In this document: positions 1 through 5,391 of the stretch, piece by piece
How positions within the stretch are numbered: the stretch's first letter is position 1
How the letters are laid out: the number at the start of each line of letters is the position of its first letter
From: a virus
Taxonomy: Duplodnaviria; Heunggongvirae; Uroviricota; Caudoviricetes
IMG/VR virus record: IMGVR_UViG_2671180710_000005
Reading direction: 5' to 3' (one strand)
DNA: 8,159 nt
Position numbers and translations under genes: made by a program
Notes under the pieces: model-generated
Seen by the model: the letters and a program-made list of their open reading frames with translations, nothing else
Databases searched by the model: none
Told to the model about the DNA's origin: nothing

Positions 1-25
1 TCTCCAGGATTCCCGGGGCGATTCA
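1..25 (-). mobile_element. Outermost 25 bp of a probable IS3-family insertion sequence (IS629/IS1203-like end); the IS body would lie left of the window
   Basis: Positions 1-25 (TCTCCAGGATTCCCGGGGCGATTCA) are the exact reverse complement of 8135-8159. On the minus strand it reads 5'-TGAATCGCCCCGGGAATCCTGGAGA, which begins TG and, from memory, differs by one base from the IS629 terminal repeat. Family assignment is unverified. Confidence 0.55.
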
Positions 26-28
26 GTT

Positions 29-385
29 TTAATTGTGCTTTATTCCTTCAAGCGTTGCCTTCATACCAACCAAAGAAATGTTTAGCTCTCCAACTTTCTC
101 AGGGCTATATAATTCAGAATGAAGCCAATATTCTGATTTATCTAAACATCTTTTAGCCAGCTCTCGATCAAAGTCTACGACTTGGGAAGACGCTTCATAC
201 CAAAGCCTATAAAGTTTTTCTTCTTCGTTTGGGTTATTAGGCTCACCACGTTTTAATTTTTCAGTATATAAAATTGTTGAACAAATCGCAGGAGTTAATC
301 CAGTGATTGCCCTCTGCCGCAGATCGGATTTGTTTGTTATCCACCCCAACAGACGATCTCCCATCCATGTGATAATTGTATCCAT
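29..385 (-). CDS. Hypothetical protein, 118 aa, no recognisable family
   Basis: ORF with ATG at 385-383 and TAA at 31-29. Plausible SD (AAGAAGGG) 7 nt upstream of the ATG. The stop lies 3 bp from the IS-like end. No motif recognised. Confidence 0.5.
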   Translation of the reverse strand: MDTIITWMGDRLLGWITNKSDLRQRAITGLTPAICSTILYTEKLKRGEPNNPNEEEKLYRLWYEASSQVVDFDRELAKRCLDKSEYWLHSELYSPEKVGELNISLVGMKATLEGIKHN

Positions 386-846
386 GCTTTAGCCCTTCTT
401 AGTAAATAGTGTGTAGGGCGACTGAAGGACCGAGTTTATGCTTTTTCGCATTGCTTTCAGTTAGTACACCGGTATCGCACCGGAAACAATCCTACGGCAA
501 ATTGGTTGTCTGACCTCTCGGTTTTTCGTGCATTAACCGATACCCACTACAGTCTCGGCGAAAGCTGCACACCCCCAGGGTGTACTGGTAGCACTCGGCA
601 CAGCCTAGCACGCCACTTTCTTCTCACTATCCAGTCTAATTTTATCCCCTAGTCAGACACTCAGATGTAGTGCTCCGCAGCGGCATGCGGGGGAATACAA
701 AAACTCGGACAAAATTGGGCCCTCCTTTTTGAATCACTCGCGGGGATGTAGTTATTAATACATGGAAAAAGATCTGTTTTCAAATCCAACATTATATGGT
801 TTCAATACCACGGGGTGGCTATGTGTTTCTCATTGTTAATTGGAAT

Positions 847-1170
847 CTACTGTAATCGATCCGAACGTAAATGCGGCAAAACTCGACTCCACTTATCATC
901 CTGCCACGGCCGGAATTTTACATGTGCCGTTTCTCTGGCAAGGATTGCCTGTGCCTTATTGAGTATCTGGGGATATTCTTGCTCGATAGAAGTGAAGCGA
1001 CCAGCTTCACGATGCTCCGCAACCTGAAGAAGAGGAGTAACGTTCTGGTAGGTAATTAACATCACATTCCCTGCTCGCCATAACCAGGCGAGTGTGCAAA
1101 GTTCGTTATCAGTGAATTGTTTTGTGATTGGGGATTGTTGAACTGCTAGAACGAGAACGCCAGCATCCAT
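847..1170 (-). CDS. Hypothetical protein, 107 aa, no recognisable family
   Basis: ORF with ATG at 1170-1168, preceded by AGGGA 6 nt upstream. Same strand as the flanking genes. The overlapping plus-strand ORF 815-1027 is Cys-rich and looks spurious. Confidence 0.45.
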   Translation of the reverse strand: MDAGVLVLAVQQSPITKQFTDNELCTLAWLWRAGNVMLITYQNVTPLLQVAEHREAGRFTSIEQEYPQILNKAQAILARETAHVKFRPWQDDKWSRVLPHLRSDRLQ

Positions 1171-4465: not shown

Positions 4466-5391
4466 AGCTCCACCCCGTAAATCCAGTCAGTGTTCGTCAG
4501 GTCGAGTTTTGGTTTGCCGGCTGTCACGCCAGCCTGTTGCTTGTTTCGGTTGATTTCGAGCTGGGTCCACTTGTCGCGGAGTTTGGCCGGACTTAGCACG
4601 TTACCGGACCAGAAGTTGTCCTGGCATGCCCAGCGGAACAGCACGCACATGTCGCGGTGGTTACGTCCGTCACGTTCACGCATCAGGCGGATATCGTTAG
4701 CCCACCCTGCAAAATTCGGTTTTCTGGCTGATGGCGCGATGGTCTTCACCATGTCAAACATCCACTCTGCGGCGGTCAGGTCTTCTGCTGTCCCCCACTT
4801 GCTGCCGCTCTGAATTGCAGCATCCGGTTTCACCACAGGAAGATCGTTTTCTGGTTGGTCAGAGGATTCGCCAGAATTCTCGGACGAAAAAGGTTTTATA
4901 TTGTCTTTTGTTAGTTTGTCTTTTGTGTTTACCTGATTCGGGTAAACGCCTTTACCTGATTTGGGTAAACTTTTTTTACCTGATTCAGGTAAATTTACCT
5001 CTTTCAGGTAAACTTTATTTTTCTTACCTGATTCGGGTAATGTTGACCATTCACTGACCACATTATTAATGCCGGTATTCCGCCCGCTCTGAATAAAAAT
5101 CCCACGCTTTACCAGAACACTTTTTGCAGCAGAACACTTGTGCGGCAATATCCCGGTTAATTCGGAAAGTTGCTCGTTGCTAACCCAATCCAGTTTTTTA
5201 TTAAAGCCATATGTTTTGCGCATGACAGCCAGAAAGACCAGAAGCTGGTGCTGTGTTAATCCGGCCAGCATCACAGCTTCCAGCAACTCATTTGCAATGC
5301 GCGTATAACCATCATCGAGATCTGCCACGCGCGGCTCCTTTTGTGCCGCATCCGGCACTGGAAAATTGAATATCTCAGCAGTGTTTGCCAT
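4462..5391 (-). CDS. O: Lambda-type replication initiator O, about 309 aa
   Basis: The C-terminal ~120 aa (EWMFDMVKTIAPSARKPNFAGWANDIRLMRERDGRNHRDMCVLFRWACQDNFWSGNVLSPAKLRDKWTQLEINRNKQQAGVTA.KPKLDLTNTDWIYGV) matches lambda O; the N-terminal domain is O-like but diverged. Start placed at MANTAEIFNF (ATG 5391-5389), which aligns with the lambda O N-terminus and has a GGGAGG SD. The track ORF extends 30 codons further to 5481. Confidence 0.88.
   Translation of the reverse strand: MANTAEIFNFPVPDAAQKEPRVADLDDGYTRIANELLEAVMLAGLTQHQLLVFLAVMRKTYGFNKKLDWVSNEQLSELTGILPHKCSAAKSVLVKRGIFIQSGRNTGINNVVSEWSTLPESGKKNKVYLKEVNLPESGKKSLPKSGKGVYPNQVNTKDKLTKDNIKPFSSENSGESSDQPENDLPVVKPDAAIQSGSKWGTAEDLTAAEWMFDMVKTIAPSARKPNFAGWANDIRLMRERDGRNHRDMCVLFRWACQDNFWSGNVLSPAKLRDKWTQLEINRNKQQAGVTAGKPKLDLTNTDWIYGVEL
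4929..5042. repeat. Origin of replication iterons (ori-lambda type) inside the O gene, with adjacent AT-rich region
   Basis: Five roughly 19-bp palindromic iterons of the form TTACCTGATTCGGGTAAAC start at 4929, 4952, 4976, 4995 and 5024. An AT-rich stretch lies at about 4885-4928, downstream in the O reading direction, as in the lambda ori. Confidence 0.8.

What the first reader, a model, noticed from the sequence alone, without database searches (positions are those of the whole stretch)
29..385. Unrecognised 118-aa protein at the IS-proximal edge
The protein (MDTIITWMGDRLLGWITNK...) matches no family I recognise. It has a credible SD, sits immediately downstream of the ORF-free stretch, and ends 3 bp from the IS-like end. 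Prophage accessory positions next to IS elements often hold defence or anti-defence cargo, but nothing in the sequence establishes a function.
Basis: inference. Interest (0 to 1): 0.45.

Follow-up and report, generated by a model that had tools for sequence, protein, structure and literature searches.

The report
Accessory phage gene behind ornate RNA
The 118-aa ORF is a real prophage accessory gene of unknown function, with relatives in bacterial defence islands, and the supposedly empty DNA just upstream of it is an undescribed, highly structured ~330-nt RNA gene shared by lambda-like phages of enteric bacteria.

Summary
The ORF (29..385, minus strand) is real. RefSeq calls it a hypothetical protein. 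It lies in the nin region of a DLP12-type lambdoid prophage and is under purifying selection. It matches no Pfam, NCBIfam or PADLOC model, only PHROG 12412 (unknown function). A confident model (pLDDT 95) shows a generic up-down helical bundle. Distant relatives are about 120-aa proteins. In five of the six bacterial (non-phage) neighbourhoods examined they sit beside defence genes, and at least one is fused to a TIR domain. Close and distant phage relatives occupy other accessory slots.

The IS is incidental: it is present in only 3 carriers and lies 3 nt after the stop codon.

The main result concerns the "ORF-free stretch". Window 747->420 (minus strand) is a 328-nt conserved element. It has 82 predicted base pairs, 14 of them with compensatory changes, plus a covarying 6-bp loop-loop pseudoknot. 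A conserved promoter-like site precedes it. In other phages an intrinsic terminator and unrelated genes follow it. Rfam 15 has no match.

In this window there is no terminator, so the ORF is probably co-transcribed with the RNA. RNA and protein each occur without the other.

The function of both is unproven. My best guess is a lysogen-expressed conflict (exclusion or defence) cassette.

The parts
1..25 (-). Terminal 25 nt of an IS3-family insertion sequence (IS629-like OrfA lies beyond the window edge). Incidental; not part of the cassette.
   Evidence: Only H1-H3 match bases 1-25. All other carriers align from base 26. RefSeq annotates an IS3-family transposase next to it. An IS-free relative continues directly into the spacer before ninB.
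29..385 (-). 118-aa accessory protein gene (WP_000379698.1; PHROG 12412). Acidic (pI 5.7), 13.7 kDa, helical bundle.
   Evidence: third-position bias; pLDDT 95.2.
393..398 (-). Shine-Dalgarno-like GAAGGG, 7 nt upstream of the ATG.
   Evidence: Sequence read directly. Inference.
420..747 (-). Core of a conserved, structured, undescribed RNA element. Two domains, about 19 helices. P1 starts at 747 and the closing helix of domain 2 ends at 420.
   Evidence: Alignments A2/A4/A5. RNAalifold gives 82 pairs, 14 with compensatory changes. 99% of cells are paired versus 33-48% in slid controls. No codon periodicity. No Rfam hit at E<=10.
667..672 (-). Loop of hairpin P5 (CACUAC): 5' half of the covarying loop-loop (kissing) pseudoknot.
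   Evidence: pairs A5 columns 93-98 with 215-220. 100% paired in 21/21 variants. Two positions covary (AU<->GC; UA<->AU<->CG).
545..550 (-). Hexaloop of hairpin P12 (GUAGUG): 3' half of the kissing pseudoknot.
755..783 (-). Promoter-like site: -35 TTGAAA (783-778), 17-nt spacer, -10 TATTAA (760-755). It ends 7-8 nt before the first base of helix P1.
   Evidence: 19 of 20 distinct upstream variants have TTGnnn, then 17-18 nt, then wTwAAT at the same distance from AUCCCC, while the surrounding sequence differs. The tool's stricter consensus scan does not call it, because the -10 lacks A at position 2. Inference.

Best explanation
The finding is the protein-coding 3' half of a two-part accessory cassette (moron) in the nin region of a lambdoid prophage.

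The RNA (shown by comparison). The 5' half is an independent gene for a compactly folded RNA of about 330 nt. It has two domains joined by a covarying 6-bp loop-loop interaction. It is made from its own promoter-like site on the window's minus strand. In many related phages this RNA ends at an intrinsic terminator and is followed by unrelated small genes.

Co-transcription (inferred). In this lineage no terminator was found by scan or by eye. The 118-aa ORF starts 34 nt after the last helix. Transcripts that begin at the RNA promoter are therefore expected to run on into the ORF, so both products would be made in the lysogen.

The protein. It is a soluble, acidic helical bundle with a conserved face or core (T37, Y40, E55, W62, K83, W87). 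It belongs to a large unnamed family. That family travels as single-gene cargo in phage accessory slots and in bacterial defence islands, and at least one member forms the N-terminal domain of a TIR protein.

Proposed role (inferred, not shown). The protein is a binding or sensor-type module used in phage-host or phage-phage conflict. Most likely it is a prophage-encoded exclusion or defence factor. It acts independently of the RNA, whose own function is unknown.

My separate confidences: real selected gene 0.95; real structured RNA on this strand 0.9; co-transcription 0.6; conflict (defence-side) role of the protein 0.4.
For: Gene is real:
- RefSeq CDS.
- Full-length homologues at 51-79% identity in Enterobacter, Obesumbacterium and metagenomes.
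- Third-codon-position excess.
- Confident fold.

Family and context:
- 169 clusters; 73 profile hits, all 'hypothetical'.
- One confirmed TIR_2 fusion, P0100 (E 4e-18); 2 of 67 scanned members hit TIR_2.
- Neighbours: N6_N4 MTase+HATPase_c_3 (56); Abi_C and Pepco (57); TIR_2 and DUF6864 (58); GmrSD (88); SNF2/DUF1156/DUF499 (100).
- Phage slots: nin region; next to xis/int (68); between lysis genes and terminase (110).

RNA:
- The block is conserved while its flanks are not alignable.
- 82 pairs, 14 with double changes, against 1-6 in slid controls; covariation score 0.227 against about 0.05; 0/500 shuffles reach it.
- Kissing loop 100% paired, with 3 pair types at one position.
- Invariant G-U pairs (150/200 and 206/229 in 21/21) would be A-C mismatches on the other strand.
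- Intrinsic terminators follow directly on the same strand in L075, L016 and L009, and in 10 viral-contig loci plus most metagenome variants that lack the 118-aa gene.
- The promoter-like site is conserved in position.
- No coding periodicity: 44/42/43 variable columns.
- In the truncated-gene lineage the RNA stays 98-99% identical while the gene remnant is 92-93% identical.
- The cassette is carried by isolated phages IdasGreatGrand and Turner.
Against: - There is no experimental or expression evidence of any kind.
- PADLOC has no model for the protein.
- Fold matches are generic bundles only.
- The defence-island argument rests on six bacterial neighbourhoods and one confirmed TIR fusion.
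- About 37% of E. coli carriers have lost the C-terminal half of the gene, so it is dispensable to the prophage.
- The promoter-like -10 lacks the consensus A at position 2 and fails the tool's scan.
- The single-sequence fold is no more stable than shuffles (z -0.4 and -0.6), and its minimum-energy structure differs from the comparative one.
- The RNA family found is narrow (75-100% identity, about 8 lineages, Enterobacterales only). Covariation counts therefore rest on few independent events. The region of A5 columns 266-313 is not solved.
- Absence of a terminator between RNA and ORF was judged by scan and by eye only.
Confidence: 0.45

Rival explanations
1. Anti-defence decoy. The phage carries a free-standing copy of a helical module that bacteria use as the N-terminal (sensor or assembly) domain of TIR and other immune proteins. 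The free copy binds the same partner or the host protein itself and blocks activation, helping the phage or prophage escape host immunity.
For: - Same family as the N-terminal domain of a TIR protein.
- The 51%-identity homologue lies in an early-left operon next to xis/int, overlapping its neighbours, a position typical of early host-takeover genes.
- The protein is small and acidic.
Against: - Here and in the Klebsiella phage ST101-KPC2phi6.3 the gene sits in classical lysogen-expressed moron slots.
- Most bacterial family members are free-standing genes, not fusions. 'Decoy of a fused domain' therefore rests on at most 2 of 67 scanned proteins.
- No anti-defence family match could be tested with the libraries at hand.
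Confidence: 0.2
2. Cis-regulatory leader. The 330-nt RNA is not a free-standing gene product. It is a sensor-type leader that gates transcription or translation of whatever cargo gene sits in the downstream slot, including the 118-aa ORF, in the manner of a riboswitch, attenuator or processive-antitermination element.
For: - The architecture promoter - conserved RNA - intrinsic terminator - gene recurs in many variants.
- In the window the ORF follows 34 nt after the RNA with no terminator.
- An invariant AAGGAGG and a 19-codon UUG ORF lie inside the RNA.
Against: - The downstream genes are unrelated to each other: the 118-aa bundle, a 178-aa two-TM protein, 176-aa, 93-aa and DUF1367 proteins.
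- No alternative anti-terminator pairing was found.
- In the 118-aa variants there is no expression platform at all.
- Two domains locked by a kissing loop, and 328 nt, are larger and more elaborate than known leaders of this kind.
Confidence: 0.15
3. Ribonucleoprotein. The 118-aa protein is the dedicated partner (binder, chaperone or effector) of the structured RNA, and the two work as one unit.
For: - Immediate adjacency and probable co-transcription in three diverged lineages: E. coli, Enterobacter and Obesumbacterium.
- In E. coli the RNA (159 genomes) and the gene or its remnant (160 genomes) have nearly the same carrier count. Adjacency was checked only in the loci examined.
Against: - The RNA occurs without the protein in 12 viral-contig loci, counting two without a clear terminator, and in most metagenome variants that lack the gene.
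- The protein occurs without the RNA at 51%, 50% and 25% identity and throughout the wider family.
- The RNA persists nearly unchanged where the gene is truncated.
- The protein is acidic (pI 5.7).
Confidence: 0.1
4. Neutral passenger. The ORF is a once-functional accessory gene now drifting in a largely defective DLP12-type prophage, with no current role. Its adjacency to the RNA is a by-product of mosaic recombination at gene boundaries.
For: - About 60 of 160 E. coli carriers have a truncated allele. The remnant is more diverged (92-93%) than the adjacent RNA (98-99%).
- In this window an IS lies 3 nt downstream.
- The upstream antirepressor gene is itself a remnant.
Against: - The intact alleles show a clear third-position excess across genera.
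- The intact gene is identical in two isolated, viable phages.
- 96 genomes keep it full-length at >=99% identity.
Confidence: 0.1

Closest known systems
PHROG 12412 (and PHROG 8527, its truncated form)
   Same: End-to-end profile match (E 8e-70, positions 1-118 of 118). PHROG 8527 (66 aa) matches residues 1-65 and corresponds to the truncated allele common in E. coli.
   Different: The PHROG carries no function, so membership names the protein but explains nothing.
N-terminal helical domain of bacterial TIR-domain defence proteins (e.g. P0100, TIR_2, beside GmrSD)
   Same: Sequence-level homology of the about 90-residue bundle (residues 24-109 of the query match 18-104 of P0100). Defence-island setting.
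   Different: The window protein has no TIR or other effector domain. Most family members are free-standing. The role of the domain in the fusion has not been studied, as far as I could find.
CheA P1 / HPt four-helix-bundle phosphotransfer domains
   Different: Only 8-11% identity. No invariant histidine in the family (invariant: A33, T37, W62, K83, W87). De novo designed bundles score almost as well. This is fold resemblance only.
GOLLD / ROOL / OLE-type large 'ornate' bacterial and phage RNAs
   Same: A large, multi-helix, strongly covarying non-coding RNA of unknown function carried by (pro)phages. Loop-loop contacts are a hallmark of the oligomeric assemblies reported for those RNAs (PMC12286853).
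   Different: No match to any Rfam model, including these. It is smaller (about 330 nt, against roughly 600-800 nt for GOLLD and ROOL from my own knowledge). It is found in Enterobacterales lambdoid phages. Oligomerisation is untested here.
Type III toxin-antitoxin / AbiF-like cassettes (promoter - RNA - terminator - protein)
   Same: In many variants the order is promoter-like site, RNA, intrinsic terminator, small protein gene.
   Different: The RNA is not a tandem repeat array. The downstream proteins are unrelated to each other and match no PADLOC model. The same RNA precedes different proteins, which an antitoxin specific for its toxin would not do.
Prophage sRNA and moron genes of lambdoid phages (DicF, IsrK, IpeX; bor/lom-type morons)
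   Same: An independent transcription unit inserted between conserved phage genes and carried mosaically.
   Different: Those sRNAs are about 50-100 nt base-pairing regulators (own knowledge) with Rfam models. This RNA is about 330 nt, has a complex tertiary fold, and matches none of them.

Membership tests
PHROG 12412 (phage protein family, function unknown) | Full-length match to the family profile | tested here: met
   E 8.1e-70, residues 1-118 against profile positions 1-118 of 118.
Known anti-phage defence proteins (PADLOC-DB v2) | Match to any defence-system protein model | tested here: not met
   0 families at E<=1 for the 118-aa protein. Also none for the alternative downstream genes.
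TIR-domain defence proteins (Thoeris-like and single-gene TIR) | Presence of a TIR domain | tested here: not met
   No Pfam domain in the window protein. TIR_2 was found in only 2 of 67 relatives scanned, one of them confirmed as P0100.
HPt / CheA-P1 phosphotransfer domain | Conserved phospho-accepting histidine on a solvent-exposed helix face | tested here: not met
Structured non-coding RNA (generic criterion) | Base pairs maintained by compensatory substitutions, above controls, on one strand | tested here: met
   99.0% paired. 14 pairs with double changes against 1-6 in slid controls. Covariation score 0.227 against 0.035-0.058. 0/500 shuffles reach it. Kissing loop 100% paired with 2 covarying positions. 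Invariant G-U pairs fix the strand.
Any Rfam 15 family (including GOLLD, ROOL, OLE, HEARO, raiA, IsrK, DicF, group I/II introns, tmRNA, RNase P) | Covariance-model match | tested here: not met
   No hit overlapping the element at E<=1 on the whole window. No hit at E<=10 on 390-770 alone. No tRNA or tmRNA.
Type III toxin-antitoxin (ToxIN-like) | Antitoxin RNA made of tandem direct repeats upstream of an endoribonuclease toxin | tested here: not met
   No tandem repeats in 1-1300. The downstream protein is a helical bundle with no ToxN or AbiF match.
Retron | Reverse transcriptase gene adjacent to the ncRNA | tested here: not met
   No RT among the annotated genes for 8 kb on either side, nor in the other contexts.
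Riboswitch / cis-acting leader | Conserved aptamer plus expression platform, upstream of a functionally coherent gene set | tested here: inconclusive
   A terminator follows the RNA in many variants. The downstream genes are unrelated to each other. The window variant has no terminator.
Phage moron (independent accessory transcription unit) | Own promoter and terminator; inserted between conserved phage genes; mosaic distribution | tested here: inconclusive
   Mosaic insertion between replication genes and ninB, and terminators in relatives, are shown. The promoter is only a positionally conserved consensus-like site that fails the strict scan. Expression was not tested.

The most novel reading that the evidence does not exclude
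The 328-nt element founds a new class of 'ornate' phage RNA in lambda-like phages of E. coli, Klebsiella, Enterobacter and Obesumbacterium.

Its covarying loop-loop contact may act between molecules rather than within one. That would build an RNA-only or RNA-protein assembly, as reported for ROOL and GOLLD, and as I recall for phi29 pRNA. The assembly would act in trans in phage-host or phage-phage conflict.

The site just downstream would then be a cargo hot spot whose genes, the 118-aa bundle protein among them, are expressed from the RNA's promoter.
Probability: 0.2. Interest if true: 0.85.

Novelty: new variant of a known kind. Interest (0 to 1): 0.6.

Why it matters
Lambdoid phages of E. 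coli are among the most studied genetic systems. A 330-nt RNA with about 19 helices and a covarying tertiary contact, unannotated in all 159 complete E. coli genomes that carry it and absent from Rfam, would be a new structured-RNA class in a fully tractable host. Phage IdasGreatGrand and ordinary E. coli strains make genetics, probing and cryo-EM straightforward.

The protein adds a large, unnamed helical family to the list of defence-island and prophage cargo genes worth testing. It has occasional TIR fusions and about 170 clusters at 50% identity.

For annotation, the lesson is practical. The 'spacer' next to a hypothetical gene carried more evidence of selection than the gene itself.

Tried and rejected
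Protein family and fold searches:
- Pfam, NCBIfam and PADLOC on the protein gave nothing.
- A PDB sequence-profile search gave nothing.
- The afdb50 library was unavailable.
- hhalign of the family profile against the two commonest alternative downstream proteins showed no relation. A first impression that the 176-aa Klebsiella-phage protein is HEPN-like (RHNLLH) got no support from Pfam or PADLOC.

RNA searches:
- Rfam on the whole window and on the element alone gave no match to the element. The single hit, rliD at E 0.61 in 4926-5039, lies in a repeat-rich part of the replication gene and is chance.
- ARAGORN found nothing.
- Two scans of genome contigs found 0 matches, so no species-level host list could be made.
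- Four viral scans and one metagenome scan with different invariant motifs returned only the same 75-100% identical family. No distant RNA relatives were found.

Structure ideas tested and dropped:
- A blind all-against-all covariation screen was swamped by clade structure. Helix-based counting was used instead.
- A second pseudoknot (GUCUGAC 658-652 with GUCAGAC 514-508) is invariant, so it cannot be tested.
- An 8-bp alternative pairing, CCGAGUUU with AAACUCGG, is broken in three lineages without compensation. I rejected it.
- The search for >=10-nt complementarity between the RNA and the rest of the prophage locus gave only scattered matches of 10-13 nt.

Coding potential of the element was rejected. 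There is no periodicity and no frame is open in all variants.

Literature searches found no description of either component. GiPD474 (PMC12724215) is an unrelated ATPase.

Full report
**1. The observation**

The window is the early-right region of a DLP12-type lambdoid prophage of E. coli. From right to left on the minus strand it carries cI, cro, a YdaT-type gene, O, P, ren, emrE and ybcK.

The ORF at 29..385 (minus strand) is annotated in RefSeq as WP_000379698.1, 'hypothetical protein'. A GAAGGG lies 7 nt before its ATG.

Its stop codon is 3 nt from base 25. Homology to most other carrier genomes stops at that point. Only three genomes (H1-H3) match bases 1-25, and they carry an annotated IS3-family transposase there. 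IS-free relatives continue into a conserved spacer and then ninB/ybcN.

So the description is correct, but the IS is a recent, lineage-specific insertion with no bearing on function.

**2. The gene is real and selected, but dispensable**

Full-length homologues at 69-79% identity occur in Enterobacter, Obesumbacterium and metagenomes. Others occur at 51%.

Nucleotide differences fall mostly on third codon positions: 20/15/62 and 24/17/52.

The gene or a remnant of it is present in 160 of 5426 complete E. coli genomes. In 96 it is full length. In about 60 it is a truncated allele (66 aa or shorter, matching PHROG 8527) that has lost the C-terminal half.

Two isolated phages, IdasGreatGrand and Turner, carry the intact gene unchanged.

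**3. What the protein is**

- Pfam, NCBIfam and PADLOC give nothing. PHROG 12412 (unknown function) matches end to end.
- An exhaustive phmmer search finds 169 cluster representatives at E<=1e-3. Most are 115-135 aa. A profile search returns 73 proteins, all unnamed.
- Invariant residues are A33, T37, W62, K83 and W87. Y40, E55, A65, L76 and I103 are nearly invariant.
- With the 43-sequence alignment, AlphaFold gives pLDDT 95.2 and pTM 0.82. The model is an up-down helical bundle.
- Foldseek against PDB and BFVD gives nothing significant.
- The protein is acidic (pI 5.7).

**4. Where the family lives**

In five of the six bacterial neighbourhoods I could read, the small gene lies beside defence-type genes:
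- N6_N4 methylase plus HATPase_c_3
- Abi_C and Pepco
- TIR_2 and DUF6864
- an SNF2/DUF1156-methylase/DUF499 operon
- for the fused form, its own TIR_2 domain next to GmrSD

The sixth lies near a patatin gene and a phage sheath gene.

In phages the family occupies three different accessory slots:
- the nin region (this window)
- the early-left end next to xis/int, at 51% identity
- the gap between lysis genes and terminase, at 25% identity

This is the behaviour of mobile single-gene cargo in conflict-related loci. It does not tell us the activity.

**5. The 'ORF-free stretch' is a structured RNA gene**

*Conservation.* I aligned the upstream DNA of the window with the Obesumbacterium and Enterobacter loci. 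A block of about 330 nt aligns almost without gaps, while the sequence on either side does not align.

*Distribution.* The block occurs in:
- about 64 viral contigs
- 23 metagenome contigs
- Klebsiella phage Kp4856-1
- 159 E. coli genomes, one copy each and never annotated

*Secondary structure.* On 21 distinct variants (75-100% identical, about 8 lineages) RNAalifold predicts 82 pairs in 19 helices. When counted:
- 99.0% of cells are standard pairs, against 33-48% when partners are slid by 1-3 columns.
- 14 pairs carry changes on both sides, against 1-6 in the slid controls.
- The covariation score is 0.227, against about 0.05.
- No shuffle of 500 reaches it.
- Helix P12 alone has five covarying pairs, one with five pair types.

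*Tertiary contact.* The loop of P5 (CACUAC, 672-667) is complementary to the hexaloop of P12 (GUAGUG, 550-545). All six pairs hold in all 21 variants. Two positions covary (A-U/G-C, and U-A/A-U/C-G), with no one-sided change. Slid controls give 8-55% pairing.

*It is not coding.* Variable columns show no codon periodicity (44/42/43) and no frame is open in all variants.

*It is not in Rfam.* Rfam 15 gives no hit, even at E<=10 on the element alone.

**6. Strand and ends of the RNA**

Invariant G-U pairs (for example 150/200 and 206/229) would be A-C mismatches on the other strand. The RNA therefore reads on the window's minus strand.

In 10 viral-contig loci and most metagenome variants that lack the 118-aa gene, an intrinsic terminator follows within about 10 nt of the last helix on that strand. 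The tool finds it in L075 and L016, and it is readable in L009.

Upstream, 19 of 20 distinct flanks keep TTGnnn, then 17-18 nt, then wTwAAT. This site ends 7-8 nt before the first base of helix P1, in otherwise divergent sequence.

The strict scan does not call this a promoter, because the -10 lacks A at position 2. I therefore treat it as an inference.

In window coordinates:
- -35: 783-778
- -10: 760-755
- RNA core: 747->420

**7. Relation between the RNA and the protein**

They are separable:
- Downstream of the RNA one finds the 118-aa gene with no terminator in between (E. coli, Enterobacter, Obesumbacterium). Or one finds, usually after an intrinsic terminator, an unrelated gene: a 178-aa two-TM protein, a 176-aa protein, a 93-aa protein or a DUF1367 protein. 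None of the first three has a Pfam or PADLOC match, and the first two are unrelated to the bundle family.
- The 51%, 50% and 25% homologues of the protein have no such RNA upstream.
- In the E. coli lineage with the truncated gene, the remnant is 92-93% identical to the window allele. The adjacent RNA stays 98-99% identical.

The simplest reading has two steps. The RNA is an autonomous accessory gene. The site just after it is a slot where cargo genes are exchanged.

In this window no terminator was found by scan or by eye between RNA and ORF. The ORF is therefore probably transcribed from the RNA's promoter. That step is inferred.

**8. Mechanism and its limits**

Shown by comparison:
- The gene is selected.
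- The RNA is folded and strand-specific.
- RNA and protein are separable.
- Relatives sit in defence-island and moron contexts.

Inferred:
- The promoter is active.
- The RNA and the ORF are co-transcribed.
- Both are expressed in the lysogen.
- The protein has a conflict-related role.

I commit to a prophage-encoded exclusion or defence role for the protein. I picture it as a binding or sensor module that acts on its own. My confidence in that role is about 0.4. The rivals are an anti-defence decoy, a cis-regulatory role for the RNA, an RNA-protein complex, and a neutral passenger.

I cannot assign a function to the RNA. Its size, its invariant single-stranded stretches and its loop-loop contact point to a scaffold or an assembling RNA rather than a base-pairing sRNA.

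Cautions:
- Single-sequence folding is not more stable than shuffles.
- The RNA family is narrow.
- The region of A5 columns 266-313 folds differently in different lineages.

**9. Comparison with what is known, and novelty**

The protein is a member of PHROG 12412 and of a wider unnamed family. It fails the defining tests for TIR proteins, HPt domains and every PADLOC family.

The RNA fails every Rfam family. It also fails the defining features of type III antitoxins, having no repeats, and of retrons, having no RT nearby.

In kind it is closest to the phage-borne 'ornate' RNAs (GOLLD, ROOL; PMC12286853), but no homology to them is detectable.

Literature searches found no description of either component.

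**Verdict.** The protein alone is an ordinary hypothetical accessory gene with suggestive relatives. The cassette as a whole contains an undescribed structured RNA class with strong comparative support, and that deserves follow-up.

Noticed in passing
window 847-1170 (minus strand), breakpoint near 1165-1180: The annotated 107-aa 'P22AR C-terminal domain' ORF is the 3' half of a 202-aa antirepressor-like gene. That gene is intact in phage IdasGreatGrand (86% identity over residues 100-202). Homology ends where the emrE-ybcK (serine recombinase) module begins, so that module appears to have replaced the 5' half.
   Followed up: partly
window 1-25, and L001:6758-7971: The IS3-family element (OrfA MTKNTRFSPEVRQRAV...) sits in the conserved spacer between the 118-aa gene and ninB/ybcN, 3 nt after the stop codon. 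Only 3 genomes matched bases 1-25 and so carry the IS at this site. The IS separates the gene from whatever terminator or downstream signals it normally has.
   Followed up: yes
L002:7914-8003 and the aligned regions of L005, L028, L040, L003 (just beyond the window's left edge in IS-free relatives): A spacer of about 190 nt between the 118-aa gene and ninB is conserved across genera. It includes a hairpin, CCGGAG-N9-CTCCGG, with no T-run. It could be a nin-region terminator or processing site. In L005 the ninB reading frame downstream appears to be disrupted.
   Followed up: no
window 727-653 (minus strand), inside the RNA: An invariant AAGGAGG (727-721) is followed after 8 nt by a 19-codon ORF that starts with UUG (712-653). 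It is open in every variant I translated by eye. Its substitutions follow the base-pairing pattern rather than a synonymous pattern, so I read it as non-coding. Ribosome or CsrA-type binding to the GGA motifs is not excluded.
   Followed up: partly
window 658-652 and 514-508 (minus strand): GUCUGAC and GUCAGAC are perfectly complementary 7-mers in the two RNA domains and are invariant in all 21 variants. They could form a second long-range pseudoknot, but without variation this cannot be tested.
   Followed up: partly
L073, L074, L075, L013, L016, L052 (RNA element, antisense strand): In these variants one antisense frame is open across the whole element (108 codons). In the other variants it is broken to 48-76 codons. 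I read this as a chance effect of composition, not a gene.
   Followed up: partly
L003:6795-7640: In the Obesumbacterium prophage about 850 nt between the P gene and the RNA element have no called gene. I did not examine this for further conserved non-coding elements or pseudogenes.
   Followed up: no
L002:15165-16766 (E. coli H10 prophage, next to the repressor gene): A 533-aa SIR2-family protein gene lies immediately beside the cI-like repressor in a related DLP12-type prophage. It is a likely defence gene in the immunity region. It is absent at the corresponding position in the window's source genome, which carries kil/gam/bet-type genes there.
   Followed up: no
window 4926-5039: This was the only Rfam hit in the window (rliD, 15.9 bits, E 0.61). 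It falls in a repeat-rich stretch inside the replication (O-like) gene, whose repeats look like origin iterons. It is a chance match, not an RNA gene.
   Followed up: partly
L009:4331-4356: The consensus scan missed a textbook terminator (GAAACCGCC-TACC-GGCGGTTTTTTTT) that is plain in the sequence. Negative results from that scan, including 'no terminator' in the window, should therefore be read with care.
   Followed up: yes
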